A stretch of DNA of 64,000 nt from Sandaracinaceae bacterium LLY-WYZ-13_1 (GTDB lineage: Bacteria; Myxococcota_A; Polyangia; Polyangiales; Sandaracinaceae): the NCBI GenBank assembly GCA_031800425.1, contig DAPKRR010000398.1:3220-67219 (forward strand). Direction: 5' to 3'. Below the pieces are notes generated by a model. The model worked only from the letters and a program-made list of their open reading frames with translations. It had not been told where the DNA came from and ran no database searches. Position numbers and translations under genes: made by a program. Position 1 is the stretch's first letter. The number at the start of each line of letters is the position of its first letter. Positions 1 to 37,148 of the stretch are shown here, piece after piece.

Positions 1-2662
<2,662 letters not shown>

Positions 2663-2678
2663 ATCACGGGGTCGCGCC

Positions 2679-3380: not shown

Positions 3381-3462
3381 GGGCGCATCTCGTTGCTGGA
3401 CGTTCGAGCGCTGCTATTACCGGAGCACCGGTGGTGTCGGCGCTCCGCGCGGGAGGTCTCCC

Positions 3463-5550: not shown

Positions 5551-5579
5551 CCGGCGTCGGGTGGTATACGACTGCGCCG

Positions 5580-6520: not shown

Positions 6521-6745
6521 CCGTCCCCGCGACGGAAACGCCCCAGACACGCCCCCGGCGGCGGATCCGCACGTGAAGACGGACGGCCCCGGCGCAGTCC
6601 GTCCCGACCTCGCCCTGCTCACGGCCCCGAACCGGCGTCGCCCGCGGCCACCCCTCCGCATGACGACGAACGCGAGGTCCCCACGCGACGACCGCTGGGG
6701 AGCTCGGCGCGACGCGCATGCGGAGTCTGCTAGGCTCCGCCGACC

Positions 6746-7684: not shown

Positions 7685-7691
7685 TCGAGCG

Positions 7692-9617: not shown

Positions 9618-9696
9618 CGGAATCCGATGGACGTGCCCCGTGTCGGGGCTATGAGGTGGGAGACCGAGACCTCCCCAGCGTAATCCGAGACAAGCG

Positions 9697-10704
9697 ATGG
9701 CCGAGACCTTCCGACCCGTCGAGCGCCCGCCGGGGCGCGCGTACTGCCTGATCACCCCCTGCCGGGACGAGGCGGCGTACATCCGCACCACCCTGGAGAC
9801 CACGACCGGCCAGACGGTGCCGCCGGCGCTCTGGGTGATCGTGGACGACGGCTCCACCGACGAGACGCCGGAGATCCTCGCCGAGTTCGAGGCGGCGCAC
9901 CCCTACATCCGCGTGGTCACCCGCCAGGACCGGGGCGGCCGCGCGGTGGGGCCCGGCGTGATCGAGGCCTTCTACGAGGGCCTGAGCCACGTCGACCTCG
10001 ACGACTTCGACTACGTCTGCAAGTTCGACGGCGACCTCGAGATGCCCGAGCGCTACTTCGAGCGCGTCATGGAGCGCATGGAGGACGACCGCTACCTCGG
10101 CAACCTCAGCGGCAAGCTCTTCGAGCGCCGTCCGAGCGGCGAGCTCTGGGAGGAGCGCACCGGCGACGAGAACGCGGTGGGCCCCGCGAAGTTCTACCGG
10201 ACGGAGTGCTTCCGCGAGATCGGCGGCTTCGTGCGCGAGGTGGCGTGGGACGGCATCGACGGGCACGTCTGCCGCATGAACGGCTGGATCGCCCAGTCGG
10301 TGGACGACCCCGAGATGCGCATCGTCCACCTGCGCCCGATGGGCTCGAGCCAGCAGAACATCAAAGTGGGCCGCGTCCGCTGGGGTCGCGGCAAGTACTT
10401 CATGGGCAGCGCCTGGTATTACGTGCTCGCGGCGGCCGCCTACCGCTCGATGGAGCCGCCCTGGCTCTGGGGCGGGCTCGGGATCACCTGGGGCTACCTC
10501 AAGGCGGCCCTCGGCGATCACCCCCGCTACGACAACCCGGAGTACCAGCGCTACCTCCGCCGCTTCGAGCGCCGCCAGCTCGTGCTGGGCAAGGGCCGCG
10601 CGACCCGCCTCGAGAACGAGCGCATCCGCCGCGCGGGGCCGCCCAAGGCGCCCGCCCGTCCGTCGCGGGCCTCGACCTCGGCGTCCGCGGCGTCCTCCGC
10701 GTGA
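9697..10704 (+). CDS. Glycosyltransferase family 2
   Basis: Motifs [19 protein letters not shown] and DGD (DxD) are present. Confidence 0.85.
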
Positions 10705-17218: not shown

Positions 17219-17237
<19 letters not shown>

Positions 17238-18742: not shown

Positions 18743-20761
<2,019 letters not shown>

Positions 20762-20771
20762 TTCGGAGGGT

Positions 20772-26038
<5,267 letters not shown>

Positions 26039-26613: not shown

Positions 26614-27075
26614 ATGGCCCTGGTCGAGCTGATCTACCACAGCCGCGCCGCCGAGCCGCTCGAGGAGACGGCCATCGCGGAGCTCGCCCTCTCGGCGGCC
26701 GCCCGGAACGACGAGCTCCGCCTCACGGGCTTCCTCGCGGCGGCCGATGGCTGGTTCCTGCAGGTCCTCGAGGGTGACCGGGCCACCGTCTCCGAGCTCT
26801 ACCACCGCATCGCGGTCGATCCGCGCCACCGGGAGCTGACCCTGATGCGGGTGCGGCCGATCCACGCGCGCCGCTTCGACCGATGGAACATGGGCGTCGC
26901 CGGCGAGAGCGCGCTCGAGCGCTCGCTCCTGCTGAGGCACGGCGCCACCGAGCACTTCGATCCGGCGTCGATGAGCGCGGCGTCGGCCCACGCGCTGCTC
27001 GAGGCGCTGGCGGCGCGCGCGGCGACGGCGGATCGGCCGGGTCAGTCGGGATCGGATCCGTCGGGCGGCCGGTAG
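26614..27075 (+). CDS. Stand-alone BLUF-domain blue-light photoreceptor
   Basis: Sequence LIYHSRA...NDELRLTGFL...FLQVLEG...DPRH...WNMG matches BLUF. Tyr8, Asn32, Gln50, Trp91 and Met93 are all at canonical positions. Confidence 0.85.
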   Translation: MALVELIYHSRAAEPLEETAIAELALSAAARNDELRLTGFLAAADGWFLQVLEGDRATVSELYHRIAVDPRHRELTLMRVRPIHARRFDRWNMGVAGESALERSLLLRHGATEHFDPASMSAASAHALLEALAARAATADRPGQSGSDPSGGR

Positions 27076-28136
27076 GCCTCGACCCGGTTGCCCTCGACCT
27101 CCCAGCCGTCGCCGCGGCTGCACACCAGGCAGTCCCAGCGGTCGCTGAACACGCGGTTTCCTCGGGCCACGAGCCGCTCGATGCGCGCCGGCGGCGCCTG
27201 CAGCAGGCTCGGCACGTCGTGGTGGAAGGTGTTGTCCACCAACCAGACGGTGCCGACCTCGTCCCCCTCCATCGAGCCGACCATGATGCCCGTGTTCAGC
27301 AGCGTGTTGCGCCCGAAGAAGACCGCGTCGCTGTCGCCGTGGACGCGGAAGTCGTGCTTGCGCGTGTTGGACAGCACGTTGTCGACGACGACGGCGCGCC
27401 GCACGTCGACCAGCCGCACCGTCGACTCGGGCCCCGCCGAGGTCAGGCGGTTGCCGGCGAGGATCAGATCCTCGGAGTGGAAGTCGTCCGTGTCCCCCGT
27501 CCAGACCGAGTAGCGCTCCGCCTCGGCGGTGCTGTCCACCAGCGCCAGGCGCTGGCCGCGCAAGAAGAACGCGGTGTCCTCCGCGTCCACCTCGACGCCC
27601 TCGATCGTGACGTCGGTCACCCGCCACGCGGGCCGGAACTCCGGCGGCGGCGGCACGTGCTGCGCGGGCACGGCCAGCTCGATGGTGCCGTAGCGGCCCC
27701 CGGTGATGCGGATCCGGTGCCGGCCGCGCGCCACGAGCACGCGGCCGATGCGCACCCCTTCGTCGACCCGGAGCTCCACGTCGTCGGCGCGGACCGTCAC
27801 CTCGTCCAGGTCGGCGTGAACGCGCAGGCGCGAGCCCGCCCGCCGCGCCGCCGCCGCGGCCGTCGTGGCGTCTCGTACGTCGATCTCGCGTCGCACCCGC
27901 GGCTGCTCCGGCCAGGGCACCTCGAGGCCCTCCGGGAGCGCCCCCAGGTCCACGTCGGGCGGCGCGCTCTGCGGGGGCGGCGGCTCGGGGTCGGGAGGAT
28001 CGTCGGCCAGGGGCAGGGGCGCGCCGCGCCCGGCGCCCGAGCGCCCGGAGGCGTGACCATCCGAGCCGCACGCCGACGGGGCGCAGGCGAGGCTCACCGC
28101 GAAGAGCATCCGAGCGGCGGCGCCCCGGAGGCTCAC
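27042..28136 (-). CDS. Lipoprotein with right-handed beta-helix-like repeats, paralog B
   Basis: It is collinear with 17219..18244 along its whole length. The signal/lipobox is AVSLAC. GTG 28136 overlaps the upstream TGA (GTGA). ATG 28109 is an alternative start. Confidence 0.7.
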   Translation of the reverse strand: MSLRGAAARMLFAVSLACAPSACGSDGHASGRSGAGRGAPLPLADDPPDPEPPPPQSAPPDVDLGALPEGLEVPWPEQPRVRREIDVRDATTAAAAARRAGSRLRVHADLDEVTVRADDVELRVDEGVRIGRVLVARGRHRIRITGGRYGTIELAVPAQHVPPPPEFRPAWRVTDVTIEGVEVDAEDTAFFLRGQRLALVDSTAEAERYSVWTGDTDDFHSEDLILAGNRLTSAGPESTVRLVDVRRAVVVDNVLSNTRKHDFRVHGDSDAVFFGRNTLLNTGIMVGSMEGDEVGTVWLVDNTFHHDVPSLLQAPPARIERLVARGNRVFSDRWDCLVCSRGDGWEVEGNRVEAYRPPDGSDPD

Positions 28137-28981
28137 TCCAGCTCCGTGCGCACCCGCTGAAGGTGGAAGAGGTTGTGGTCGACCACGCGCCAGGCGTCCA
28201 TCGCGCCCTGGCTGAGCAGCTCGAACATCCACTGCCCCTCGCCGCCCTCGACCTTCACCCGCGGCAGGCTGATCGGGTCCATGCCGGGCTTGATGGTGCC
28301 GTGCATCGAGTTGAAGGCGATGGCGTAGCCGGCGTCGGCGAGCCCGCGCTCGGTGACCGGCGAGAAGTCGCCGCGCGTCCCGAACGGGTAGGCGAAGGAC
28401 GCCACCGCGTGGCCCAGGTGCTCCTCGAGGGTCTCCCGCGAGCGGCGCGCCTCGTCCCGCGCCTCCTCCGGATCCATCATCCCGAGCGAGCGGTGGGTGA
28501 AGGCGTGGCTGCCGATCGCCACCAGCCCCGAGGCCGCGACGGCCCGGATCTCGTCCCAGGTCAAGAAGCGCTCCGGGAGCTCCTCGATGTTCGCCCCGAC
28601 CAGGCTCGTGGTGATGAACGCCACCGCCGGCACGCCGTGGCGCTCGAGGATCGGCAGCGCGGGGTCGAGGGTGCTGATGCAGCCGTCGTCCAACGTCACC
28701 AGGCACGCGCCGTCGGGCAGCGTCTCGCGGCCGGCGACGAAGGCCTGCACCTGCGCCAGCGAGACGGCCAGCCCGCGCTCGGCGAGGAAGCGCATCTGCG
28801 CGTCGAAGGCCTCCGGGGTGACGCAGAAGGCCTCGCGCGGCTCGTAGCCCACGCGGTGGTAGGTCAGCGCGCGCACCCGCGGCCGCCGGCGCACCGCGCG
28901 CCGCGCCACCATCGAGCCGCTCGCCCAGCTCCCGAGCACCGCCGCCTGGCGCGCCGCCTTCTTCACCCACCAGCGCGCCAC
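28133..28981 (-). CDS. Polysaccharide deacetylase (CE4) family protein
   Basis: Motifs LTYHRV, TLDDG and GSHAFTH are present. The start lies 1 nt after the stop of the upstream adenylation gene. Confidence 0.85.
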   Translation of the reverse strand: MARWWVKKAARQAAVLGSWASGSMVARRAVRRRPRVRALTYHRVGYEPREAFCVTPEAFDAQMRFLAERGLAVSLAQVQAFVAGRETLPDGACLVTLDDGCISTLDPALPILERHGVPAVAFITTSLVGANIEELPERFLTWDEIRAVAASGLVAIGSHAFTHRSLGMMDPEEARDEARRSRETLEEHLGHAVASFAYPFGTRGDFSPVTERGLADAGYAIAFNSMHGTIKPGMDPISLPRVKVEGGEGQWMFELLSQGAMDAWRVVDHNLFHLQRVRTELE

Positions 28982-28982
28982 G

Positions 28983-30569
28983 TCAGCCCTCCTCCAGGCG
29001 CGCCATCAGCGCCTTGCGGTCGATCTTGCCGTTCGGGTTGAGCGGGAAGCGCTCCACCAGGTGGACGGCCGAGGGCTGCATGTAGCCGGGCAGCTTGGCC
29101 CGCGCCGCCTCGAGGACCGCGTCCGCGTCCGCGTCCGGCGCGCCGACGAAGCCCACCACGCCGTCCGCCCCGCTCGCCGTCTTCGGCCAGCCGAGCGCGA
29201 TGGCCGCCTCGGCCCCCGAGACGTCCCGCAGGACCGCCTCGATCTCGCCGAGCTCCACCCGGTAGCCCTGGATCTTGATCTGGTTGTCCACCCGGCCGAG
29301 GTAAATCATCGGCCCGCCCTCGGGCCAGCGCACCCGGTCGCCGGTGCGGTAGAAGGTCCGCCCCTCGCCCGGCGGCACGACGAAGGCCTTCGCCGTCTTC
29401 TCCGGGTCCTCCCAGTAGCCGGGGGTCATCTGCGGCCCGGTCATGAGCAGCTCGCCCGCCTCGCCTCTCGGCACCTCGTGCAGCGCCTCGTCGCAGATCC
29501 GCACCTCCATGTCGGGGTACGGCGCGCCGATCGGGGTCACCCCCATCTCGGCCTCGCCCGGCGACCGCGCCGGATCCCAGCGGTAGAGGGTGCAGGCGAT
29601 GGTGAGCTCGGTGGGCCCGTAGAGGTTCTCCACCGTCGCGTTCGGGGCCGCCTCGGCGAACTTCTCGACGATCTCCACCGGCAGGGCCTCGCCGCAGAAG
29701 AGGGCCCAGCGCAGGGTCGGGTAGCTGCCGGGCTTGAGCATCTTCAGCCGGCTCATCAGGACCCCCGTCGAGGGCACGCTGAACCACACGGTGAGCGCCT
29801 GCTTCTTGACGTACTTGCCGGGGAACATCTTCTGCTGCGCGGTCGGCACGCAGAGACACGCGCCCTTCTCCCAGGCGCAGAACATGTCGAAGACGCTCAG
29901 GTCGAAGGTCAGGTCGAAGGTGTTGCTGAGGCGGTCCGCCTCGGTGATCCCGTAGCGCTCGACCATGAAGTCGACGAAGGGGACGACGTTCCGGTGGGCG
30001 ACCATCACGCCCTTGGGCCGTCCCGTGCTGCCGCTCGTGAAGAGCACGTAGGCGAGGTCGTCGGGGTCGGCCTGGCGGGGCTCGCAGGCGTCGGCCGGCG
30101 CCAGGTCGCCGGCGCCGAGGAAGCGGTGGCTCGGATGGCGCGCGGCGAGCTCGGAGACGTCGTCCGCGTCCGGCGCGAGCACCACGCGCGGCTCGTCGAC
30201 GCCCTCCAGCAGCTCGTCGAGCTGATCGATCGCGGTCGGGTCCACCACCACCGAGCGGCAGCGCGCTCGGGTCATCATCGAGCGGCAGCGCTCGGTGGGG
30301 AACGCCGGGTTGAGCGGCACGTAGCCGTGGCCCCGGGTCAGCGCGCCGAGCACGCCGGCGAAGGCGGTGGGGTGCCGGTGGCCGAAGACCGCGGTCAGCC
30401 GCCCTTCGCCGTCGGGGGCGTGCCGGTCCAGGGTGGCGGCGACGCGGCGCGCCCGGACGTCCAGCTCGCGGTAGGTCAGGGTCTCGTCTCCGACGGTCAG
30501 CGCCTCGCGGTCGGCGTGGCGCTCCGCCGAGGCGGCGAAGCCGGAGCGCAGGGTGCGCGTCGTGGTCAT
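28983..30569 (-). CDS. Stand-alone amino-acid adenylation enzyme (DltA-like, AMP-binding family)
   Basis: Motifs are A3 FTSGSTGRPKG, A4 TFDLSVFDMF (Asp retained, so an alpha-amino acid substrate is likely), A5 NLYGPTE, YRTGD, GRVDNQIKIQGYRVELGEIE and PLNPNGKIDRKAL. No C, T or TE domains are fused to it. Confidence 0.88.
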   Translation of the reverse strand: MTTTRTLRSGFAASAERHADREALTVGDETLTYRELDVRARRVAATLDRHAPDGEGRLTAVFGHRHPTAFAGVLGALTRGHGYVPLNPAFPTERCRSMMTRARCRSVVVDPTAIDQLDELLEGVDEPRVVLAPDADDVSELAARHPSHRFLGAGDLAPADACEPRQADPDDLAYVLFTSGSTGRPKGVMVAHRNVVPFVDFMVERYGITEADRLSNTFDLTFDLSVFDMFCAWEKGACLCVPTAQQKMFPGKYVKKQALTVWFSVPSTGVLMSRLKMLKPGSYPTLRWALFCGEALPVEIVEKFAEAAPNATVENLYGPTELTIACTLYRWDPARSPGEAEMGVTPIGAPYPDMEVRICDEALHEVPRGEAGELLMTGPQMTPGYWEDPEKTAKAFVVPPGEGRTFYRTGDRVRWPEGGPMIYLGRVDNQIKIQGYRVELGEIEAVLRDVSGAEAAIALGWPKTASGADGVVGFVGAPDADADAVLEAARAKLPGYMQPSAVHLVERFPLNPNGKIDRKALMARLEEG

Positions 30570-30586
30570 GGAGCCTCGTGGTTGCT

Positions 30587-30841
30587 TCAAGGTCGGTCGG
30601 CGAAGAACCCGTCCCACAGGGTGTCGACGCTGGTGAAGACCTCCGGCTCGATCTCGTCGGTGTCGATCTCCTCCTCGCGGAGCTCCTCGATGAAGAGCAC
30701 GAACTCCACGATGTCGAGGGACGACAGCAGCCCGGTCTCGAGGAGGGGGGTCTGGTCGGTGAGGTCTCCGCCCTTGGGCGGCGACTTGGCGTGCTCGAGA
30801 ATCCACTCTCGAAGCGCGCCCCGGATCTCCTGCTCGTTCAT
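30587..30841 (-). CDS. Acyl/peptidyl carrier protein
   Basis: The protein is 84 aa. The phosphopantetheine site is TGLLSSLDIVEF. It lies 17 nt upstream of the adenylation gene. Confidence 0.8.
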   Translation of the reverse strand: MNEQEIRGALREWILEHAKSPPKGGDLTDQTPLLETGLLSSLDIVEFVLFIEELREEEIDTDEIEPEVFTSVDTLWDGFFADRP

Positions 30842-30952
30842 GCGTGAGGCCTCGGAATCGACGGCGGCGTCGTCGCGACGCCGGCCCATCCTGAACGATT
30901 TCAGATTCGGAGCAAGTCCCCGAGCGAGCGCGGTCAACAGGGCCATCGCGGC

Positions 30953-31246
30953 TCAGTCGATCGCGTCTTCGGCCAAGCGCTCGGCGGCCGTCTCGGCCTC
31001 CTCGTCCATCGTCTCGGTCGGGTCGGCCTCGACGTCGGTGGCCAGCTCGGCGCGCTCCTCGGCGACCTCCTCGGCGATCTCCTCGTCGACCGGCCCGGCG
31101 CCCATCGCCTCCTGACGGTCCTCCGCCCGCTCCTCGGCGACCTCGCCCATCCGGTCCGAGATCGGATCCGGGTTGTCGACGGTCTCCTCGCAGCCCGCGC
31201 TGCCCAGGGCGGCGGCGGCCGCCACGATCATCAATGCTCTGCTCAT
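30953..31246 (-). CDS. Small highly acidic lipoprotein, function unknown
   Basis: The lipobox is ALGSAGC. The mature part is Glu/Asp/Ala-rich. GC3 is high. Confidence 0.5.
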   Translation of the reverse strand: MSRALMIVAAAAALGSAGCEETVDNPDPISDRMGEVAEERAEDRQEAMGAGPVDEEIAEEVAEERAELATDVEADPTETMDEEAETAAERLAEDAID

Positions 31247-31300
31247 GCTCGTCTCCCGTGTCGTCGGGACGGCGAACCGAGCGAAGGTCGGTGGCGAGGA

Positions 31301-31495
31301 TCAGTCCAGCTTCTCGGGCGGCGCCGGCTTCTCCGGCTCGTCCGCCCCGCGGCCGCCACCTCGGCGGCGCTCCGCGTCCTCGGCGGGCTCGCCCGCCCAG
31401 TCCGGGCCCTGCTCGGGCCGGCGCACGGCCTTGTCGTCGTGGTCCTCGCGCGCCTTCTTCTGGACGTCCTCTACCTTCGGGTCTCGGTCCGTCAT
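31301..31495 (-). CDS. Small hydrophilic protein (64 aa), hypothetical
   Basis: Support is only the ORF, high GC3 and co-orientation within the array. No motif was recognised. Confidence 0.3.
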   Translation of the reverse strand: MTDRDPKVEDVQKKAREDHDDKAVRRPEQGPDWAGEPAEDAERRRGGGRGADEPEKPAPPEKLD

Positions 31496-31535
31496 CGCGT
31501 CCTCGACATAGGAGCGAGCCGGAGGGGCCCAAGCC

Positions 31536-32399
31536 TCAAAGCTCGGGCGCCTCCTGCAGCAAGCCGTTGCGAAGGAAGATGTTGACCAGCTTCTTGCTGG
31601 CCTTGCGTCGGTGCTCGGCGGTCGCCGGATGCGCCAGCGCCATCTTGCGCACCTGGTAGGGCTTGTCGAGCCCGGCGTCCTTGTACATCGTCGGGTTGTA
31701 GAAGTCGTTCCAGCTCGACTTCACGTACTGGCCCAGCCAGTCGGAGAAGCCCTTCTTCGTCTCCTCGTCCCACTTCGGGAGCCAGTGCTCGGCCAGCTCG
31801 GTGAGGTGGCGGCGGCCGAAGCCCAGGTGCCGCGACTCGTCGCGGTGATGCACCCAGTTGATCCGCTTGACGATCGGCTCGATCGCGTCGTCGAGCATCA
31901 TCTTCACGTTGTAGTAATCGCCCAGCTCCTCGACGACGAGCACCTTGCAGAAGAAGGCCAGCTCCTCCTCGCCCTTGGAGTACTCGCGCTCGAGCGCGAC
32001 CTTCTTCTCCGGGTACACCTTCCCGACGTACTTGTTCAGGAAGATCCCGAACATGATCATGTGCTTGTTCTCTTCGTCGATGAAGTGGTGCAGGTACTCG
32101 GTGGCCTCGGGCGAGACGCGCTTGCTGTAGAGGCGGTCGCTCAGCCCGGCGACCAACGGCCGCTCCCCCTGCAGGGTCAAGCTGAAGAAGTTCGCGACCT
32201 CGTAGAGGCTCAGTCGCTTGCGCTGCTCCTCGTTCAGCTCGTCCCAGAGCTCGGTCCCGTGAATCGAGATCAGCTCGGGGGGCATGCAGTAGCGATCGGC
32301 GCTGAGCTCCTCGGGCCAGTCGAACTCCGTGTAGACGTTCCAGAACTGGTCGCGGGACTGTTCGGTCAGTCGGACGGCGAGCTCGTTGGCGGTCGACAT
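31536..32399 (-). CDS. Ferritin-like diiron oxygenase (AurF / p-aminobenzoate N-oxygenase-like family)
   Basis: Carboxylate/His ligand pattern: E (LYEVANFF), ExxH (EENKH), E (VVEELGD) and H...ExxH (HHRDESRH). GGAG lies 13 nt upstream of the ATG. Confidence 0.75.
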   Translation of the reverse strand: MSTANELAVRLTEQSRDQFWNVYTEFDWPEELSADRYCMPPELISIHGTELWDELNEEQRKRLSLYEVANFFSLTLQGERPLVAGLSDRLYSKRVSPEATEYLHHFIDEENKHMIMFGIFLNKYVGKVYPEKKVALEREYSKGEEELAFFCKVLVVEELGDYYNVKMMLDDAIEPIVKRINWVHHRDESRHLGFGRRHLTELAEHWLPKWDEETKKGFSDWLGQYVKSSWNDFYNPTMYKDAGLDKPYQVRKMALAHPATAEHRRKASKKLVNIFLRNGLLQEAPEL

Positions 32400-32435
32400 G
32401 GCTCTTGGATCTCCTCGTGCCTTGGTACGTTCGAG

Positions 32436-32453
32436 CCGGGGAGTCCTCCCCGG
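32436..32453 (-). terminator. 18-nt perfect palindrome between the GNAT-like and diiron oxygenase genes (hairpin of unknown role)
   Basis: The sequence is CCGGGGAGTCCTCCCCGG, located in the 139-nt intergenic gap. Confidence 0.25.
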
Positions 32454-32538
32454 TCCCTACATGACTAGGTCGGGTTTCGGGGGCCTTCAATCGATCGCGG
32501 TGCGATGACGCAGGGACGCCACCTCGGGCGCGGCGCCC

Positions 32539-33672
32539 TCAGAGCATCGGGCCGTGCCCGTCCATGTTGGACAGGAACAGGCCCTCGCGGGTCTCCTCCC
32601 ACGGCTGCAGGAGCTTCTCGAGGGCGGGCGAGGCGCAGAAGATGCGCCGGTCCTCGACCTGGAGGAAGCCCGCCTCCTCGAAGCCCGCCACCCAGCCGGG
32701 GTGCGCCTGGTTCGCCATCACCATGTCCACCCCCACCTCGCGGAGGTGGGCGAAGGCGGCGTGCACCACGGGGGCCGCATCGGCCGGATCGGCCAGGTAG
32801 TCGGCGACGAGCCCGACCCGCATGTCGCCGAAGCGCTCGTCGCCTTCCTTCTGGCGCTCGACGACCACCGCCCAGCCGATGTCCCGGCCGTCGCGGCGCA
32901 CCCGGAGGCGGGTGGGCTCGGGCCACTCGGTGGTGACGTGCTCGTCCGGGACGAGGGCGTTCATCGTGTCGGCGTCGCGGACGGCGATCGCCGCGTAGTC
33001 GTCCTTCACGCGCTCCCAGAGCTCGTCCGCCCAGGGGCCGAACTCGCTCACCACCTCGGAGGTGACGCCGAACCGCGGCTTGAGCGACTTGACGCGCAAG
33101 GCCTTGTGGAGCGCGTGCATCCCGATCGTCCCGAGCCCGCTGAACGCGAGCACGTCCTGCGCGAGGGCCCGCTTGGGGTCCTGGCGCAGGTAGGCGTTCT
33201 TCCGGAGGAAGTTCTTCGGACGACACACCCGGAACAGGAACGGCGTCGGGTGCAGGAGCCAGCCCATCTTCCGGAGCATCTGGACGATCGGCTCCTCGTT
33301 GCCCCCGTGGCCCCAGCTGTAGAGCAGGGGCTGCTTCTTGAGCATGTCGCGGACCATCCGCAGGCCCATCGCCGCGTAGCGGTTGTCGATCGCGCCGAGC
33401 GAGAACGGCCCCTGCCAGTCCGTGACGGTGTGGATCTCACCGCGGATCCGCCACTGCTGCGGCTTGAGGGCGTAGCCGCCCACGCAAGCCTCTTCGTTCT
33501 CGATCGCGAGGTAGAGCTCGCGCCAGACCTTCTGGCCCTGGCGCTTGGGGATCCACACCGGCTCCGGGTCCACGTAGAAGCCCCAGGGCGAGCCCGCCTC
33601 GCGCATCCGGCGGTTGAAGAGCTCGACGAGGTCCTTCTTGTCCTGTCCGTGCGGAACGATCTTGATGCTCAT
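32539..33672 (-). CDS. GNAT-fold acyl/aminoacyl transferase (FemAB/BioF2-like)
   Basis: The protein is 377 aa, and its size and two-lobed layout fit this family. The C-terminal lobe (GWAVVV...MRVGLVADYL...AHLREVGVDMV...GFEEAGF) resembles a GNAT core. The call is by resemblance only. Confidence 0.55.
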   Translation of the reverse strand: MSIKIVPHGQDKKDLVELFNRRMREAGSPWGFYVDPEPVWIPKRQGQKVWRELYLAIENEEACVGGYALKPQQWRIRGEIHTVTDWQGPFSLGAIDNRYAAMGLRMVRDMLKKQPLLYSWGHGGNEEPIVQMLRKMGWLLHPTPFLFRVCRPKNFLRKNAYLRQDPKRALAQDVLAFSGLGTIGMHALHKALRVKSLKPRFGVTSEVVSEFGPWADELWERVKDDYAAIAVRDADTMNALVPDEHVTTEWPEPTRLRVRRDGRDIGWAVVVERQKEGDERFGDMRVGLVADYLADPADAAPVVHAAFAHLREVGVDMVMANQAHPGWVAGFEEAGFLQVEDRRIFCASPALEKLLQPWEETREGLFLSNMDGHGPML

Positions 33673-33800
33673 GGGGGTCTCTCCGGGCGCCGCGGTCGGG
33701 GCGAGTATGGCATCGTGCTACGCCCCGGCCAGCGCTTCTCTTCCCGGGGGGAGCTAAGCGCGGGCTGCCTCGGCCCCAACCCACGGGCGTCGGGGGCGGC

Positions 33801-35306
33801 TCAGCCGCGGCGGGCGCGGATCTCGCGCAGGACGAGCCGGCCCGCCCAGGCGCCGTAGGGGATCAGGATCGCGGCGCCGACTCCGATCGACAACAGCTGC
33901 GGGTCCACGCCCACCACCGGGCCGAGGAGCCACGGCGTGTAGCCGCCGGCCACCCCGAGCACGACGCCCAGGACGGTCCACTTCAGGTCGCTCACGAAGA
34001 TGGGGATGCCCTTCTTCTTCAGCCCCCGGGCGACCGTGGCGTAACCCACCAGCGACCCACCGGTGACCCCGAGGATCAGCCCCGGGAGCTGGCCCAGCCA
34101 GAAGCCGATCAGCGCCGCCGGGATGGTGCCGCCGAGCTTGGCCACGTTGGCGATCATCTGCGAGCGCGAGTCGCCCATCGCGAGCTGCACGCGGATCGAG
34201 GTCTCCTGCAGGAAGAAGAACCAGGTGTTCAGCATCAACAGCTGCACCATCCAGCCCGCGTCGTGGTAGCGCTCGTCGTAGAGCAGCCAGAAGAAGGCGG
34301 GCGCCCCCAGGGCGGTGGCCAGGACCATCAGCACGCCCGACGCGTTCATCACCCGGCGCGCGTTGCGCACGTTCTCCCCGAACGCCGCCTCGTCGTCGCG
34401 GAACGACTCGCTCAGCGCCGGCAGGAGCACCCAGAGCACGATCTGCCCGGTCACGAGCTGGGGCAGACCCGCCAGGTTCTGGCCGACGGTGTAGATGCCG
34501 AAGGTGTCGAGCTCGATCAGCTTGCCGAGCGCGATCGAGTCGAAGCGCATCCCGACGTAGGTCACGAGCGACGACAGGAAGATCCACTTGCCGAAGTCGA
34601 AGATCACCCTCGCCGCGTCCTTCTCCCAGGAGAACCGGTTGTTCTCCCCGGGCAGGGCCACGTGGCTCAGGATCATCCGCGTCACGTCGCCCGCGATCGC
34701 GCCGCCGAGCAGGGCCCAGACGTTTCGGGCGAGGTAGGCCCAGGTGACCATCACCGCGAGGGTCACGACCTGCCCGGTGATGTTCACGAAGACGAGCCGG
34801 CCGAGCTCGATCCGGCGGTTGAGGGTCGCGAGCTTGGTGGAGTCCAGGCCGCTGATGATCCCCTGCACGGACGCCACCAGGATCAGCGGGAAGAGCTCCG
34901 GCTCGCCATAGACCTGGGCGTACGGCCAGGCGACCGCCAGCGCGATCACGCTCAGGCCCGCGCCGCGGATGAACTGGATGGTCCACGCGGTGTTCAGGAA
35001 CGAGCGCTCCTCGCCACGCTCGTGCTGGATGATGTTCGGGACGATCCCGACGTCGCTGATCATCTGCAGGCCCTGGTTGAGCACCAGGACGAGGCCCATC
35101 AGGCCGTAGGCCTCCGGGAAGAGCAGCCGCGTGGTGATCAGGTTGCCGGCGAGGCGCAGGATCTGGACGCCGCCCACGTTGGCGACGCTGAGCAGGGTGC
35201 CCTTGATGGCGCGGCTCTTGAGCGACTTCGCCGGGGGCGACGCACCCTCCTCGGACGCCCCTTCGTCGGGCTCGGGACGCTCCTCCTGCTCGGGCGACGA
35301 TTCCAT
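33801..35306 (-). CDS. Oligosaccharide flippase (Wzx; polysaccharide biosynthesis protein, MOP superfamily)
   Basis: The protein is 501 aa with about 12-14 hydrophobic helices. The N-terminal sequence (GTLLSVANVGGVQILRLAGNLITTRLL) is typical of Wzx. Confidence 0.85.
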   Translation of the reverse strand: MESSPEQEERPEPDEGASEEGASPPAKSLKSRAIKGTLLSVANVGGVQILRLAGNLITTRLLFPEAYGLMGLVLVLNQGLQMISDVGIVPNIIQHERGEERSFLNTAWTIQFIRGAGLSVIALAVAWPYAQVYGEPELFPLILVASVQGIISGLDSTKLATLNRRIELGRLVFVNITGQVVTLAVMVTWAYLARNVWALLGGAIAGDVTRMILSHVALPGENNRFSWEKDAARVIFDFGKWIFLSSLVTYVGMRFDSIALGKLIELDTFGIYTVGQNLAGLPQLVTGQIVLWVLLPALSESFRDDEAAFGENVRNARRVMNASGVLMVLATALGAPAFFWLLYDERYHDAGWMVQLLMLNTWFFFLQETSIRVQLAMGDSRSQMIANVAKLGGTIPAALIGFWLGQLPGLILGVTGGSLVGYATVARGLKKKGIPIFVSDLKWTVLGVVLGVAGGYTPWLLGPVVGVDPQLLSIGVGAAILIPYGAWAGRLVLREIRARRG

Positions 35307-35402: not shown

Positions 35403-37148
35403 GTGCCCGGCGACAGCGCAGCGGCTCCTCGGCGGATCCCCGGCCGCGTCGCCGACCTCGCGGCGCTCGGCGGGCTCACCGTGGCCTGGTGGAGCGCGGT
35501 GGCGCTCGCCGACCCGCGCGGCGACTTCCCCCTGAACGACGACTGGGGCTACGCGCCGGCGGTGCGGGCGCTCGTGGAGGACGGGGCGCTGCGCTTCACC
35601 GAGTGGCAGAGCATGCCGCTGGTCACCCACGTGCTCTGGGGCGCGCTCTTCGCGAAGGTCGCGGGCACATCCCACGAGGCGCTGCGGGCCTCGACCCTGG
35701 TGATGGGCTGGCTCGGCGTCCTCGCCGTCTACGGGCTGCTGCGCCAGGTCCGCGCCCCGGCGCGGGTGGCCTCGGTGAGCGCGGCGCTCGTCCTGGCCAA
35801 CCCGATCTACTTCGCCCTCGCCCACACCTTCATGACCGACGTGCCCTTCGTGGCTGCGCTCACCGCCGCCACCGCGGCGTGGATCCGGGCCGAGGACACC
35901 GGCCGGGCCCGCTGGCTCGTCGCCGCCGTCGGGCTCTGCCTGTGGGCGGTCCTGAATCGACAGCTCGGCATCGCGCTGCCGTTGACCTGGACGGTCGTCT
36001 CCGCCCTGCGCCACGGCATCGGGCGCCGATGGCTCCTCACCGCCCTGGGCCCGGCCGTCCTCGTGATCGGCGGGCTCTTCCTCTACGAGCGGGTGATCGA
36101 GGCGACGCTCGGCCTGCCGCTCCTCTACCACCGCAAGGGCGAGGAGCTGATGGAGGCGCTGACCGATCTGACGCGCCTGCGGGGCCTGCGCTTCCCGCTC
36201 GTGCGCAGCACCTGGGCGCCGCTCTACCTCGGGCTCTTCTGCGGTCCGTTGATCGCCCTGCTCTGGCCGTCGCTCGAGCAGCACTTCCTGGTGCGCTTCT
36301 TCCCGGTCCTCGGCGGGGCGAGCGCCGCGCTGGCCGCCGGGCTCGACGCGGGGCTCCCCCTCACCGGCAACGTGTGGATCGACCTGGGGATCGGCCCACG
36401 GAGCGCGCCCGGCGTGGTCGCGGGCACGAGCGACAAGCTCTGGATCATCCTGACCACCGCCGCGGGGGTCGGCGCGGGCTTCCTCTTCGTGGCCCTGCAC
36501 GCCGGGGCGTGGCGCGCCGGGGTCCTCGGCGCGGCCGGCTCGTGGCGCGGCTGGCCCCGCCGCGTCTTCGCGGGGCTGCGAAGCCGGGCCACCCCGGACG
36601 AGCCGGGCGGCGCGGTGCCCGCCTGGGCTTGGCTGCTCGTCCTCGGCACCGCGCTGGTCGCCTTCGCGCCCACCTCGCTCGTCTACGGCGCCTGGTTCGA
36701 CCGCTACCTGCTCACCCAGCTCCCCTTCGTGCCGGTCTCGCTCTGGGCGGCGGCCGACCGGCGCGAGGGCGCCGAGCCCATCTCGACCGCGATCGGCGCG
36801 GCGGCCCTGGCGCTCTTCGCGGCCTTCAGCGTCGCGGGGACCCACGACTACCTGGCCTGGCAGCGCGCCCGCTGGGAGGGCGTGGCCCGGCTCGAGGCCC
36901 GCGGCGTCCCGCGCGAGGACATCCGTGGCGGCTTCGAGGTCGACAACCACCCGCCGCCCCCCGAGGGCACGACCCTGGCGAGCCGCCCCAAGGCCCCCTG
37001 GGCGGTGGCGATCGCCCCGCTCCACGGCCACCGGGTCGTCGAGCGCATCCCGGTGGACGCGTGGCTGCCGAACGCGGTGGACGAGATCCTGCTGCTCCGA
37101 CGGTCTCCGAAGCCGAGCACTTCCGGCGAATCGGAGATTCGCCGCTAG
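35403..37148 (+). CDS. GT-C fold membrane glycosyltransferase (ArnT/PMT, GT39/GT83-like)
   Basis: It is multi-pass with an acidic first-loop motif (PLNDDWGY). It is divergent from the flippase gene. The GTG 35403 start is uncertain; GTG 35481 is an alternative. Confidence 0.65.
   Translation: MPGDSAAAPRRIPGRVADLAALGGLTVAWWSAVALADPRGDFPLNDDWGYAPAVRALVEDGALRFTEWQSMPLVTHVLWGALFAKVAGTSHEALRASTLVMGWLGVLAVYGLLRQVRAPARVASVSAALVLANPIYFALAHTFMTDVPFVAALTAATAAWIRAEDTGRARWLVAAVGLCLWAVLNRQLGIALPLTWTVVSALRHGIGRRWLLTALGPAVLVIGGLFLYERVIEATLGLPLLYHRKGEELMEALTDLTRLRGLRFPLVRSTWAPLYLGLFCGPLIALLWPSLEQHFLVRFFPVLGGASAALAAGLDAGLPLTGNVWIDLGIGPRSAPGVVAGTSDKLWIILTTAAGVGAGFLFVALHAGAWRAGVLGAAGSWRGWPRRVFAGLRSRATPDEPGGAVPAWAWLLVLGTALVAFAPTSLVYGAWFDRYLLTQLPFVPVSLWAAADRREGAEPISTAIGAAALALFAAFSVAGTHDYLAWQRARWEGVARLEARGVPREDIRGGFEVDNHPPPPEGTTLASRPKAPWAVAIAPLHGHRVVERIPVDAWLPNAVDEILLLRRSPKPSTSGESEIRR

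What the first reader, a model, noticed from the sequence alone, without database searches (positions are those of the whole stretch)
27042..35306. Nine-gene co-directional array linking a stand-alone adenylation enzyme and carrier protein to polysaccharide-modifying and export genes (candidate carrier-protein-dependent aminoacyl decoration of an exopolysaccharide)
Seen in sequence: nine minus-strand genes follow each other with short gaps or overlaps. In order they are Wzx flippase (35306-33801), GNAT/FemAB-like transferase, AurF-like diiron oxygenase, a 64-aa hydrophilic ORF, an acidic lipoprotein, an 84-aa carrier protein, a DltA-like adenylation enzyme, a CE4 polysaccharide deacetylase and a beta-helix lipoprotein. 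The deacetylase starts 1 nt after the adenylation stop. The beta-helix lipoprotein start overlaps the deacetylase stop (GTGA). A GT-C glycosyltransferase is transcribed divergently from the flippase. The adenylation A4 core is FDLSVFDMF, so the alpha-amino-binding Asp is retained. Established knowledge: in the Dlt pathway, DltA loads D-Ala onto DltC, and transfer then requires DltB (MBOAT) and DltD. I see neither DltB nor DltD here. FemAB/GNAT-fold enzymes transfer aminoacyl or acyl groups to amines. CE4 enzymes unmask sugar amines. PEP-CTERM-type EPS loci are known to combine FemAB-like, CE4 and AsnB-like genes. Inference: an amino acid, possibly oxygenated while on the carrier, is transferred by the GNAT/Fem-like enzyme to a de-N-acetylated sugar of a Wzx-dependent repeat unit. 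I know of no characterised pathway with this exact gene combination, but I cannot search to confirm that.
Basis: partly seen in the sequence, partly recalled or inferred. Interest (0 to 1): 0.72.

Follow-up and report, generated by a model that had tools for sequence, protein, structure and literature searches.

The report
Carrier-protein aminoacyl cassette in polysaccharide locus
A conserved, uncharacterised gene cassette sits inside surface-polysaccharide gene clusters of at least five bacterial phyla. It probably loads a glycine-like amino acid on a small carrier protein, oxidises it, and attaches it to a sugar.

Summary
They are not a conserved unit. Only four genes recur together: a 377-aa protein with no Pfam or NCBIfam match (here called X), an AurF-like diiron oxygenase, an 84-aa carrier protein and a stand-alone adenylation enzyme. 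These four co-occur in 51 loci and keep the same order and strand in 47. A CE4 or DUF2334 deacetylase lies nearby in 39 of 51. The loci come from Myxococcota, Burkholderiales, Gammaproteobacteria, Spirochaetaceae, Brocadiaceae and Acidobacteriota, and nearly all are polysaccharide loci.

X models confidently as a tandem GNAT (N-myristoyltransferase/Eis-like). In two metagenomic proteins it is fused behind an adenylation-carrier module. The adenylation pocket code, DLFSLCLIAK, matches 8 of 10 positions of glycine-activating AlmE; nine orthologues match 9 of 10. The oxygenase keeps the AurF/CmlI ligand set of three His and four carboxylates.

In other lineages the diiron enzyme is replaced by an acyl-CoA-dehydrogenase-like or a luciferase-like enzyme. 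The unit is therefore modular: adenylation, carrier, redox tailoring, then GNAT off-loading.

Three of the nine genes are lineage-specific, and the beta-helix call is unconfirmed. I rate it a new variant of a known kind (Dlt, AlmEFG, Wbp/Vim).

The parts
32539..33672 (-). X: 377-aa soluble tandem-GNAT protein of an undescribed family. Proposed acyltransferase that off-loads the carrier protein.
   Evidence: No Pfam or NCBIfam hit, even at E<=10. 679 homologues, all annotated 'hypothetical'. 1208 clusters at 50% identity in 1.84 billion proteins. AF2 model pLDDT 95.1. Foldseek best hits are N-myristoyltransferase, Eis and 2ozg/2i00 tandem GNATs, E 1e-10, TM about 0.5. Fused C-terminal to adenylation-MT-carrier (P0378) and to adenylation-carrier (P0343). 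No membrane segment.
31536..32399 (-). AurF-like diiron (or Mn/Fe) carboxylate oxygenase. Proposed to tailor the carrier-bound aminoacyl group.
   Evidence: PF11583 2e-46. AF2 pLDDT 94.5. Best structural matches are AurF 2jcd (TM 0.64) and CmlI 5hyh (TM 0.66), then R2lox and RNR-R2. Invariant E67, E110-x2-H113, E157/158 and H184-x3-E188-x2-H191 in 56 sequences. No PDB sequence hit. Adjacent to X in 57 of 82 loci.
30587..30841 (-). 84-aa acidic stand-alone (type II) carrier protein.
   Evidence: 55 orthologues of 82-90 aa with invariant G37, S41, L42 and D43. The profile's best PDB match is the prolyl carrier PltL, E 2.4e-10, with S41 aligned to PltL's corresponding Ser. PF00550 is weak in 10 of 31 orthologues. 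pI 4.05.
28983..30569 (-). 528-aa stand-alone amino-acid adenylation enzyme, predicted to activate glycine or another small amino acid.
   Evidence: TIGR01733 363 bits, above cut-off. DltA models 277-285 bits, below cut-off. Closest solved single-domain relatives are VinM 8k4r (332 bits), IdnL7 6akd (292), AlmE 4oxi (268) and DltA about 205. The 10-residue code is DLFSLCLIAK, identical in 38 of the 61 adenylation sequences clustered with it from 57 loci. Nine have DLHSLCLIAK. AlmE has DLHSFCLIAK.
28133..28981 (-). 282-aa CE4 polysaccharide deacetylase, soluble. Proposed to unmask a sugar amine.
   Evidence: PF01522 3e-21. Weak hits to PgaB, HfsH and IcaB. D98, D99, H159, H163 and Y198-P199 conserved in 31 orthologues, and no membrane segment. 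Follows the adenylation gene in 29 of 51 loci.
33801..35306 (-). Wzx-type MOP flippase, the first gene of the array.
   Evidence: Polysacc_synt_3 2e-49 and Polysacc_synt 1e-19. Present in 9 of 51 cassette loci.
31301..31495 (-). 64-aa hydrophilic ORF. Lineage-specific insertion between the oxygenase and the carrier gene.
   Evidence: Positive coding score. Homologue only in L002, 54% identity. No family hit.
30953..31246 (-). 97-aa acidic putative lipoprotein. Lineage-specific.
   Evidence: N-terminal MSRALMIVAAAAALGSAGC. pI 4.05. No homologue in any of 80 loci.
27042..28136 (-). 364-aa putative lipoprotein. The beta-helix fold is unconfirmed. Lineage-specific.
   Evidence: GTG overlaps the CE4 stop. 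Only NosD at E 0.14. No PDB hit. Paralogue at 17219-18178, 54% identity. Homologues in only 4 loci.
35448..37148 (+). GT-C (PMT_2-type) membrane glycosyltransferase, divergent from Wzx.
   Evidence: PMT_2 1.5e-11 and PMT 5.6e-06. Homologue only in L002.
2..10704 (+). Distal half of the same polysaccharide gene set. It holds an NRPS-like adenylation domain with an embedded luciferase-like monooxygenase plus a carrier domain (2-2662), a chain-length determinant (3463-5550), an Alg14/Alg13-like split GT (5580-6520), an epimerase (6746-7684), an AsnB-like amidotransferase (7692-9617) and a GT2 (9697-10704).
   Evidence: Pfam and NCBIfam. The same families are contiguous with the cassette in L052, L054, L069 and L073.

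Best explanation
The functional unit is a four- to five-gene cassette embedded in a Wzx-type polysaccharide locus: X, an AurF-like oxygenase, a carrier protein and an adenylation enzyme, usually with a deacetylase.

**Proposed mechanism.**
1. The adenylation enzyme activates a small alpha-amino acid and thioesters it to Ser41 of the 84-aa carrier. Glycine is the best guess; Ala or Ser are not excluded.
2. The AurF-like dimetal oxygenase modifies the carrier-bound aminoacyl group. N-oxygenation is the most likely reaction, because glycine offers no side chain and the enzyme keeps the N-oxygenase-type ligand set.
3. The soluble tandem-GNAT protein X takes the tailored acyl group from the carrier and transfers it to an amine.
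4. That amine is most likely on an amino sugar of the nucleotide- or undecaprenyl-linked repeat unit, after the soluble CE4 enzyme has removed its N-acetyl group.
5. The decorated unit is then flipped by Wzx and polymerised.

**What is shown.** Gene calls, folds, motifs, synteny and fusions.

**What is inferred.** Amino-acid identity, the chemistry of the oxygenase, the acceptor and the order of steps.

**My probabilities for each step.**
- Loading of a small amino acid on the carrier: about 0.85.
- X as the carrier-dependent off-loading transferase: about 0.7.
- A glycan amine as acceptor: about 0.55.
- N-oxygenation by the diiron enzyme: about 0.35.
For: **Synteny.** Fifty-one loci hold X, AurF, carrier and adenylation genes. 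In 47 they share order and strand. The taxa are Myxococcota, Burkholderiales, Gammaproteobacteria, Spirochaetaceae, Brocadiaceae and Acidobacteriota. AurF homologues sampled independently of X show the same neighbours.

**Context.** Forty-two of 51 loci carry recognisable glycosyltransferase or phosphoglycosyl-transferase families. RmlABCD, AsnB-like, Wzy-like, WecG, carbamoyl- and sulfotransferase genes also recur.

**Evidence on X.**
- It has a tandem GNAT fold.
- It is fused behind adenylation-MT-carrier in P0378, whose contig also holds Wzy_C, a phosphopantetheinyl transferase and an acyl-CoA dehydrogenase.
- It is fused behind adenylation-carrier in P0343.
- Three cassette variants keep X + adenylation + carrier and swap only the redox enzyme: AurF-like; acyl-CoA-dehydrogenase-like (L083, L036, L077); and luciferase-like (L089, L090).
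- L090 lies next to Wbp-type diamino-uronic-acid genes, and L089 next to an exosortase.

**Adenylation enzyme.** The pocket code matches 8-9 of 10 positions of glycine-specific AlmE.

**Carrier.** The profile matches PltL on the aligned Ser.

**Oxygenase.** AurF and CmlI are the best structural matches, and all seven ligand positions are invariant. An AurF homologue that oxidises an NRPS-tethered amino acid is known: HamC/PvfB (PMC11659414).

**Deacetylase.** CE4 or DUF2334 is adjacent in 39 of 51 loci, with catalytic residues conserved.

**Precedents.** Deacetylation followed by N-glycyl or N-seryl transfer is documented for the Wbp/Vim pathway (PMC7468200). A carrier-dependent GNAT is documented for SbzI (PMC11685415).

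**Location.** No membrane segments in X, the oxygenase, the adenylation enzyme or CE4.
Against: - No biochemical or genetic data exist for any member.
- X occurs without the cassette in 13 loci that have enough flanking sequence. It occurs with AurF but without carrier and adenylation genes in L035, L041 and L080. X can therefore work with other donors, or the partners are encoded elsewhere.
- The adenylation-carrier-X fusions are rare. The close relatives of P0378's X domain are all stand-alone. The fusions could in principle be assembly or gene-call merges.
- The pocket code differs from AlmE at one or two positions and resembles Ala/Ser-tolerant IdnL7 at others, so glycine is not secure.
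- The oxygenase is only 12-16% identical to AurF and CmlI and has no PDB sequence hit. I could not compare it with PvfB, HamC, AlmD or the CylC halogenases.
- Twelve of 51 cassette loci have no adjacent deacetylase.
- A PKS co-occurs in 16 loci and an NRPS-like protein in 7. These could provide a non-sugar acceptor.
- In this window the polysaccharide genes are split by about 17 kb of unrelated genes.
Confidence: 0.55

Rival explanations
1. The acceptor is not a sugar amine. X, whose fold is closest to N-myristoyltransferase and Eis, transfers the tailored acyl group to a protein N-terminus. Alternatively it transfers it to an amine on a PKS- or NRPS-derived lipid or aglycone made by the co-located 2,150-aa PKS and the formyltransferase-adenylation(LLM)-carrier protein. 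The product would then be a glycolipid or lipopeptide-linked glycan.
For: The best fold matches are protein- or aminoglycoside-acylating tandem GNATs. A PKS is present in 16 of 51 loci and the NRPS-like protein in 7 of 51. The window itself holds the NRPS-like protein at 2-2662. Twelve cassette loci lack a deacetylase.
Against: The PKS and NRPS-like genes are absent from most cassette loci. A deacetylase is adjacent in 39 of 51. L090 pairs X with Wbp-type amino-sugar genes. Fold similarity is only TM about 0.5.
Confidence: 0.2
2. The route is Dlt-like. The loaded carrier hands its aminoacyl group to a membrane MBOAT, which esterifies the polymer outside the cell. X has a separate role, for example with acetyl-CoA or aminoacyl-tRNA as donor.
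For: A DltB-like MBOAT (TIGR04091, 147 bits, below cut-off) with a conserved partner gene lies next to the cassette in 7 loci. X occurs without the cassette in 13 loci. X is fused to FemAB-like Acetyltransf_6 domains in P0306 and P0367.
Against: No MBOAT homologue exists in this 64-kb window or in 44 of 51 cassette loci. MBOAT-SGNH pairs are common O-acetylation modules of polysaccharide loci. X is fused directly after the carrier domain in P0378 and P0343. X, not an MBOAT, is the constant neighbour.
Confidence: 0.1
3. The cassette makes a small diffusible metabolite, such as an N-oxygenated glycine derivative like the Pvf/Ham signals. Its position in polysaccharide loci reflects co-regulation, not shared chemistry.
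For: All characterised AurF-type enzymes that act on tethered amino acids serve small-molecule pathways (PMC11659414). S. amylolyticus L083 carries an X-ACAD-adenylation-carrier variant with no glycosyltransferases nearby.
Against: No reductase, thioesterase or condensation domain is present for release. The cassette is inserted between glycosyltransferase, deacetylase and phosphoglycosyl-transferase genes, often with overlapping or 1-nt-spaced reading frames, in several phyla.
Confidence: 0.1
4. The overall scheme is the same, but the dimetal enzyme is not an N-oxygenase. It could hydroxylate or desaturate carbon, for example on Ala or Ser, or halogenate like CylC-type dimetal-carboxylate enzymes that also act on carrier-bound substrates.
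For: Identity to AurF and CmlI is only 12-16%. The enzyme is interchangeable with acyl-CoA-dehydrogenase-like and luciferase-like enzymes, which typically perform C-H chemistry on thioesters. CylC acts on a carrier-bound substrate (abstracts listed).
Against: The third His of the AurF/CmlI site is invariant. If the substrate is glycine, there is little carbon chemistry available.
Confidence: 0.3

Closest known systems
Wbp/Vim linking-sugar pathway of Porphyromonas gingivalis and Tannerella forsythia (VimE CE4 deacetylase, VimA GNAT/FemAB-like transferase, WbpS AsnB-like amidotransferase; PMC7468200)
   Same: A CE4 enzyme removes an N-acetyl group and a GNAT-superfamily enzyme then puts Gly or Ser on the freed sugar amine. 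An AsnB-like amidotransferase lies in the same gene set (window 7692-9617). VimA relatives sit in exosortase EPS loci, as the X variant L089 does. L090 lies next to Wbp-type genes.
   Different: Vim has no adenylation enzyme, carrier protein or oxygenase, and its donor is unresolved. VimA belongs to TIGR03019/PF13480, whereas X hits neither model.
AlmEFG glycine modification of Vibrio cholerae lipid A
   Same: A stand-alone adenylation enzyme and a small carrier protein supply glycine to a cell-envelope glycolipid. The AlmE pocket code DLHSFCLIAK compares with DLFSLCLIAK or DLHSLCLIAK here.
   Different: As I recall, AlmG is a membrane LpxL-type acyltransferase that makes an ester on lipid A acyl chains. 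Here the transferase is a soluble tandem GNAT, there is an extra oxygenase, and the context is Wzx-type polysaccharide synthesis.
Dlt D-alanylation system (DltA, DltC, DltB, DltD)
   Same: It uses adenylation-enzyme plus carrier-protein logic to aminoacylate a surface polymer. The FDLSV...FCGE motifs are shared with DltA.
   Different: The adenylation enzyme scores below both DltA cut-offs. The window has no MBOAT or DltD. Off-loading is cytoplasmic, and the expected linkage is an amide rather than an ester.
AurF/CmlI arylamine N-oxygenases and PvfB/HamC, which N-oxygenate NRPS-tethered valine (PMC11659414)
   Same: Membership of PF11583, the closest fold, the ligand set of three His and four carboxylates, and a carrier-bound amino acid as the plausible substrate.
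   Different: Identity is 12-16% with no detectable PDB sequence match. The setting is a polysaccharide locus rather than a small-molecule pathway. Activity is untested.
SbzI, the carrier-protein-dependent GNAT of altemicidin biosynthesis (PMC11685415), and other GNAT-fold enzymes that use acyl-carrier donors (from memory: LuxI, FeeM, OlsB, HlyC)
   Same: A GNAT-fold enzyme takes an oxidatively tailored, amino-acid-derived acyl group from a carrier protein and transfers it to an amine.
   Different: From the abstract SbzI appears to be a single GNAT, and it acts in a secondary-metabolite pathway. X is a tandem GNAT of a separate, undescribed family in glycan loci.
PltF/PltL/PltE-type pyrrolyl-carrier cassettes
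   Same: The carrier profile's best PDB match is PltL. The ACAD variants (L083, L036, L077, P0378) have the same adenylation-carrier-acyl-CoA-dehydrogenase triad.
   Different: Those cassettes feed PKS or NRPS lines or sugar O-acylation by unrelated transferases. None contains X.

Membership tests
AurF/CmlI-type diiron oxygenase (PF11583) | Pfam model score above the gathering threshold | tested here: met
   158.9 bits against 29.6, covering 4-275 of 287 residues.
AurF/CmlI-type diiron oxygenase (PF11583) | Ferritin-like helical bundle closest to AurF and CmlI | tested here: met
   AF2 pLDDT 94.5. The top Foldseek hits are AurF 2jcd (TM 0.64) and CmlI 5hyh (TM 0.66), ahead of R2lox and RNR-R2.
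AurF/CmlI-type diiron oxygenase (PF11583) | Seven metal ligands: E, ExxH, E and HxxxExxH, including the third His | tested here: met
   E67, E110, H113, E157/158, H184, E188 and H191 are invariant in 56 sequences. Assignment is by motif spacing, not by superposition.
AurF/CmlI-type diiron oxygenase (PF11583) | N-oxygenation of an amine | not testable with these tools
   Requires an enzyme assay.
NRPS-type amino-acid adenylation domain (TIGR01733) | Model score above cut-off and core motifs A3-A10, with Asp235 for the alpha-amino group | tested here: met
   362.9 bits against 317.4. SGSTGRPKG, FDLSVFDMF, NLYGPTE, YRTGD, GRVDNQIKIQGYR and NGKIDRK are present.
DltA (D-alanine--D-alanyl carrier protein ligase) | Equivalog score (TIGR01734 cut-off 559.85; NF003417 cut-off 476) | tested here: not met
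   276.7 and 284.9 bits. DltA structures score about 205 bits, against 332 for VinM and 268 for AlmE.
Dlt system | DltB MBOAT and DltD encoded alongside DltA and DltC | tested here: not met
   tblastn with the MBOAT and partner representatives found nothing in the window. They are present in only 7 of 51 related loci.
Phosphopantetheine carrier protein (PF00550) | Pfam PP-binding hit | tested here: inconclusive
   No hit for the window protein. Ten of 31 orthologues hit weakly, best E 0.0025. NCBIfam ACP models score 25-27 bits, below cut-off.
Phosphopantetheine carrier protein (PF00550) | Conserved Ser at the start of helix II that aligns with a known attachment site | tested here: met
   S41 in the G-x-L-S-S-L-D motif is invariant. 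It aligns with the corresponding Ser of PltL's GILNSMN motif, E 2.4e-10.
GNAT superfamily, tandem (NMT/Eis/Fem-type) architecture | Two GNAT folds in one chain | tested here: met
   pLDDT 95.1, pTM 0.91. 200 PDB hits at E<=1e-3. The top hits are NMT, Eis and the 2ozg, 2i00 and 2hv2 tandem GNATs.
FemAB / Acetyltransf_6 / PEP-CTERM FemAB-like (PF02388, PF13480, TIGR03019) | Sequence-model membership | tested here: not met
   No hit at E<=10 in Pfam or at E<=0.01 in NCBIfam. FemX and FemA are not among the top 50 fold matches. Some homologues are fused to a separate PF13480 domain.
CE4 polysaccharide deacetylase (PF01522) | Model hit, catalytic Asp and Asp-His-His metal triad | tested here: met
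   75.9 bits against 23.1. TLDDG (96-100), HAFTH (159-163) and YPFG (198-201) are conserved in 31 orthologues.
XrtA/PEP-CTERM exopolysaccharide system | Exosortase and system-specific equivalogs above cut-off | tested here: not met
   All XrtA-associated models score below cut-off: ligase_PEP_1 238 against 592, pepcterm_polyde 17.6, pepcterm_ChnLen 88 against 279. No exosortase was found among the window proteins scanned. An exosortase does lie next to the X variant in L089.
Wzx (MOP) flippase | Polysacc_synt family hit and a multi-span membrane protein | tested here: met
   168.7 bits. Multiple hydrophobic windows.

The most novel reading that the evidence does not exclude
X defines a widespread, unnamed family of carrier-protein-dependent tandem-GNAT transferases. 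These work in plug-and-play cassettes of adenylation enzyme, carrier and one of three redox enzymes. The AurF-type version installs an N-oxygenated glycyl group (hydroxylamine, oxime or nitro) on an amino sugar of a surface polysaccharide. I know of no reported N-O functional group in a bacterial glycan. Such a group could act as a metal-binding site. It could also be an unusually reactive nucleophilic handle for sortase- or exosortase-type attachment of proteins, extending the Wbp/Vim 'linking sugar' idea.
Probability: 0.17. Interest if true: 0.85.

Novelty: new variant of a known kind. Interest (0 to 1): 0.62.

Why it matters
Amino-acid decorations change the charge, antigenicity and protein-anchoring capacity of bacterial surface glycans. 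Only a few installation routes are understood: Dlt, AlmEFG and Vim.

This cassette would be a further route. It has a new transferase family (1,208 clusters at 50% identity, no Pfam or NCBIfam model) and an oxygenase type not previously linked to glycan synthesis. It occurs in environmental Myxococcota, Burkholderiales, Gammaproteobacteria, Spirochaetes, anammox Planctomycetes, Acidobacteriota and Verrucomicrobia.

The work gives a testable function to a large 'hypothetical protein' family. It also suggests how the amino-acid donor problem of Vim-like pathways can be solved without tRNA. It can be tested directly in cultured Sandaracinus amylolyticus DSM 53668.

Tried and rejected
- **Naive ORF listing and a first codon-model gene caller.** Both locked onto antisense frames in this 72% GC DNA. 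I replaced them with a caller seeded on tblastn-confirmed genes.
- **Sequence searches of X and of the AurF-like family against PDB.** Only noise came back: PRMT8 at E 0.003 and nothing for AurF. Fold searches were needed.
- **Pfam at E<=10 for X, the 64-aa ORF, the acidic lipoprotein and the last gene.** Nothing usable.
- **Promoter/terminator, Rfam and tRNA scans.** Uninformative.
- **Literature searches for AurF + carrier + polysaccharide.** No paper. Broader searches found only analogies.
- **Search seeded on the P0378 X domain, looking for more adenylation-carrier-X fusions.** Only stand-alone proteins were found, so the Rosetta-stone argument rests on two proteins.
- **Membership of the PEP-CTERM/XrtA system and of Dlt.** Considered and rejected because defining components are missing or below cut-off.
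- **Link to the glycine/cysteine-substituted sheath polysaccharides of Sphaerotilus and Leptothrix.** Dropped: no such genera appear among the 80 loci, and I did not test it further.

Full report
**Source and gene calls**

The window is 72% G+C. It is identical over this region to a contig of a Sandaracinaceae (Myxococcota) MAG, LLY-WYZ-13_1. Raw ORF lists are dominated by antisense artefacts. I therefore called genes with a codon model seeded on confirmed coding regions. The public gene call of the same contig agrees, except that it over-extends the carrier gene to 119 aa.

Spacings between successive genes are 128, 139, 40, 54, 111, 17, 1 and -4 nt. The GTGA overlap at the CE4 stop is real. 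No minus-strand terminator-like site lies inside the array. This is compatible with co-transcription but does not prove it.

**What the nine genes are**

Family scans confirm five assignments:
- Wzx: Polysacc_synt_3, 2e-49.
- AurF-like oxygenase: PF11583, 2e-46.
- NRPS-type adenylation enzyme: TIGR01733 363 bits, above cut-off. Both DltA models are well below cut-off.
- CE4 deacetylase: PF01522, 3e-21.
- Divergent PMT_2-type GT-C.

Four products have no sequence-family hit: the 377-aa protein (X), the 64-aa ORF, the 97-aa acidic lipoprotein and the last gene (364 aa). The beta-helix idea for the last gene rests only on NosD at E=0.14 and stays unconfirmed. That gene has a 54%-identical paralogue at 17219-18178.

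**Is the array conserved?**

X has 679 homologues, all unnamed and without Pfam domains. I fetched 80 genomic loci encoding X homologues, ran tblastn with the window proteins, called genes in all loci and clustered the products.

- Four genes (X, AurF-like, carrier, adenylation) are present together in 51 loci. They share order and strand in 47.
- The taxa are Myxococcota, Burkholderiales (Rhizobacter, Methylibium, Rubrivivax, Aquincola), Gammaproteobacteria (Pseudomonadales, Steroidobacteraceae), Spirochaetaceae, Brocadiaceae and Acidobacteriota.
- CE4 follows in 29 loci. A DUF2334 deacetylase-like gene flanks X in 10 more, giving 39 of 51.
- The 64-aa ORF and the last lipoprotein are found only in the nearest relative, L002. 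The acidic lipoprotein has no homologue in any locus. GT-C is found only in L002. Wzx is in 9 of 51 loci.
- AurF-like homologues chosen without reference to X show the same neighbours. One is in the cultured type strain Sandaracinus amylolyticus DSM 53668: RmlDCAB, then X-AurF-carrier-adenylation-CE4, with Alg14/13 and a PKS nearby.

The conserved entity is therefore a four- to five-gene cassette, not the nine-gene array.

**Context**

Recurrent neighbours of the cassette are listed below.

| Class | Neighbour families |
|---|---|
| Glycosyltransferases | GT2, GT4 (EpsE-like), WecG-family, split Alg14/Alg13-like |
| Initiation and polymerisation | EPS-type phosphoglycosyl transferase (TIGR03025), Wzy-like membrane protein |
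| Sugar-nucleotide supply | RmlABCD |
| Amidation | AsnB-like amidotransferase |
| Other decoration | Sulfotransferase, carbamoyltransferase with SxtJ/DUF5989, 2OG and TauD oxygenases |
| O-acylation | DltB-like MBOAT with a partner gene (7 loci) |
| Assembly-line enzymes | ~2,150-aa PKS (16 loci); formyltransferase-adenylation(luciferase-like insert)-carrier protein (7 loci) |

The window itself holds the second half of this gene set at 2-10,704: the NRPS-like protein, a chain-length determinant, Alg14/13, an epimerase, AsnB and a GT2. It is separated from the array by an RND pump, a Ser/Thr kinase, a GlgE-TreS/Mak-GlgB alpha-glucan block and a BLUF gene. The setting is unambiguously surface-glycan biosynthesis.

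**The 377-aa protein X**

An AlphaFold2 model built on 70 homologues is very confident (pLDDT 95.1, pTM 0.91). Foldseek against the PDB returns tandem-GNAT proteins: N-myristoyltransferases, Eis, 2ozg, 2i00 and 2hv2 (E about 1e-10, TM about 0.5). FemAB-family membership is not shown: there is no PF02388, PF13480 or TIGR03019 hit at any threshold, and no Fem structure in the top 50.

A full HMM scan of 1.84 billion representative proteins finds 1,208 clusters (507 at E<=1e-30). Among the top 150 are informative fusions:
- P0378 is AMP-binding, FkbM methyltransferase, PP-binding, then X. Its contig also encodes Wzy_C, a phosphopantetheinyl transferase and an acyl-CoA dehydrogenase.
- P0343 is AMP-binding, a GDSLS carrier motif, then X.
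- P0306 and P0367 are Acetyltransf_6/FemAB-like domains fused to X.

X sitting immediately after a carrier domain is the position of an off-loading catalyst. The fusions are rare, however. Relatives of P0378's X domain are all stand-alone. I treat this as supportive, not decisive.

**Modularity**

X keeps an adenylation enzyme and a carrier as partners while the redox enzyme changes. Three variants exist:
- AurF-like, as in this window.
- Acyl-CoA-dehydrogenase-like: S. amylolyticus L083, plus L036, L077 and P0378. This echoes PltF/PltL/PltE.
- Luciferase-like monooxygenase in Verrucomicrobia (L089) and Acidobacteria (L090). Their small downstream ORFs carry the GLLDS carrier motif.

L089 lies beside an exosortase, a FemAB-like gene and a formyltransferase. 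L090 lies beside Wbp-type genes: a 2-epimerase, a GFO/IDH/MocA-hexapeptide fusion and a DegT aminotransferase. This pattern is what one expects if the adenylation enzyme loads the carrier, the redox enzyme tailors the tethered group, and X transfers it.

**Adenylation enzyme and carrier**

The nearest solved single-domain relatives are VinM (8k4r, identified through), IdnL7 (6akd) and AlmE (4oxi). All rank ahead of DltA. From memory, all three activate Gly, Ala or other small amino acids.

| Enzyme | 10-residue pocket code |
|---|---|
| Window enzyme | DLFSLCLIAK |
| Nine orthologues | DLHSLCLIAK |
| AlmE (glycine) | DLHSFCLIAK |
| IdnL7 | DCFSLALITK |
| PigI/PltF-type | DLFSIAWVCK |

The window code is identical in 38 of the 61 adenylation sequences clustered with it from 57 loci. 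Adenylation enzymes of the ACAD variants have different codes. Glycine is thus the best prediction; Ala or Ser remain possible.

The carrier family has invariant G37, S41, L42 and D43. Its profile matches the type II carrier PltL at E 2.4e-10, with S41 on PltL's aligned Ser.

**Oxygenase**

The model (pLDDT 94.5) is closest to AurF (TM 0.64) and CmlI (TM 0.66), then to R2lox and RNR-R2. Sequence identity is only 12-16%, and even a family profile finds no PDB relative.

All seven ligand positions of the AurF/CmlI site are invariant: E67, E110/H113, E157-158 and H184/E188/H191. These include the third histidine that, to my knowledge, distinguishes the N-oxygenases. AurF homologues that oxidise an NRPS-tethered amino acid are known: HamC/PvfB (PMC11659414).

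If the substrate is glycyl-S-carrier, nitrogen is the obvious site of attack. I could not compare the clade with PvfB, HamC, AlmD or the CylC-type halogenases. I therefore rate N-oxygenation at only about 0.35.

**Deacetylase and cellular location**

The CE4 catalytic Asp and the Asp-His-His triad are conserved in 31 orthologues. X, the oxygenase, the adenylation enzyme and CE4 all lack hydrophobic segments. This places the chemistry in the cytoplasm, on nucleotide- or lipid-linked intermediates, before Wzx.

**Comparison with known systems**

The closest logic is the Wbp/Vim pathway. There, CE4 VimE removes the 2-N-acetyl group and the GNAT/FemAB-like VimA adds Ser or Gly. An AsnB-like WbpS amidates the uronate (PMC7468200). 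The authors of that work already speculated that related enzymes in exosortase EPS loci make amino-acid-modified sugars.

The cassette differs from Vim in three ways. It supplies the amino acid through a dedicated adenylation-carrier pair, as in Dlt and AlmEFG. It uses a different, undescribed tandem-GNAT family. It adds an oxygenase.

It is not a Dlt system: there is no MBOAT or DltD in the window, and the adenylation enzyme is below the DltA cut-offs. It is not a member of the XrtA/PEP-CTERM system: all system-specific models are below cut-off and no exosortase was found. A carrier-dependent GNAT has a precedent in SbzI (PMC11685415).

I found no paper describing this cassette. NCBIfam release 20 has no model for X.

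**Caveats**

- X occurs without the cassette in 13 adequately flanked loci. It occurs with only the oxygenase in L035, L041 and L080.
- Twelve of 51 cassette loci lack a deacetylase.
- PKS and NRPS-like neighbours raise the possibility of a non-sugar acceptor.
- All functional statements are inferences from sequence, structure prediction and synteny.

**Verdict**

It is best described as a new variant of carrier-protein-dependent aminoacyl decoration of surface glycoconjugates. Its two notable features are an undescribed transferase family and an oxygenase type not previously tied to glycan synthesis.

Noticed in passing
window 2-2662 (+); full-length homologues such as L042:3745-8391: An NRPS-like protein whose adenylation domain is interrupted by a MupA/Atu3671-type luciferase-like monooxygenase, followed by a carrier domain. 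Full-length homologues (1,548 aa) carry an N-terminal formyltransferase-like domain. It often sits next to a ~2,150-aa PKS and divergently from X. Its product and its relation to the glycan are unknown.
   Followed up: partly
L012, L013, L016, L025-L030, L082, L086 (Burkholderiales): A fixed 14-gene block: PKS, Zn-ADH, GT2, GT2, X, AurF, carrier, adenylation, WecG, CE4, GT2, SxtJ, DUF5989, carbamoyltransferase. Pairing a large PKS with a glycan locus suggests a lipid-anchored or polyketide-substituted glycan.
   Followed up: no
L083, L036, L077, L089, L090; protein P0378: X-family proteins pair with an adenylation enzyme and a carrier plus either an acyl-CoA-dehydrogenase-like or a luciferase-like monooxygenase in place of the AurF-like enzyme. 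L089 and L090 also encode a Lys/Orn N-hydroxylase-like flavoprotein and ATP-grasp enzymes.
   Followed up: partly
L035, L041, L080 (Sandaracinaceae and other Myxococcota MAGs): X and the AurF-like gene are adjacent, but no carrier or adenylation gene follows. Three unrelated conserved genes follow instead. The proposed mechanism does not explain this.
   Followed up: no
L015, L032, L044, L052, L069, L079 (and L065 without the cassette): A DltB-like MBOAT (TIGR04091, 147 bits, below cut-off) lies near the cassette. In most of these loci a conserved ~374-aa partner with no family hit accompanies it. It could be an ordinary O-acetylation module or a second outlet for the carrier.
   Followed up: partly
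window 17219-18178 (-) and 27042-28136 (-): Two 54%-identical paralogous putative lipoproteins with no family assignment. One closes the array and the other lies 9 kb away, next to a Ser/Thr kinase gene.
   Followed up: partly
window 18743-26038 (+): A complete GlgE, TreS-maltokinase and GlgB alpha-glucan pathway block sits between the two halves of the polysaccharide gene set. An RND pump (10742-15354) and a Ser/Thr kinase (15504-17237) sit there too.
   Followed up: partly
window 26614-27075 (+): A BLUF blue-light sensor gene converges on the array. Its 3' end overlaps the last gene of the array by 34 nt.
   Followed up: no
window 30587-30946 (-): The public gene call gives the carrier protein as 119 aa. 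Fifty-five orthologues of 82-90 aa and the coding model support the 84-aa start at 30841.
   Followed up: yes
P0306, P0367: X domains fused to a FemAB/Acetyltransf_6 domain. Two different aminoacyl or acyl transferases in one chain hint at sequential addition of two residues.
   Followed up: no
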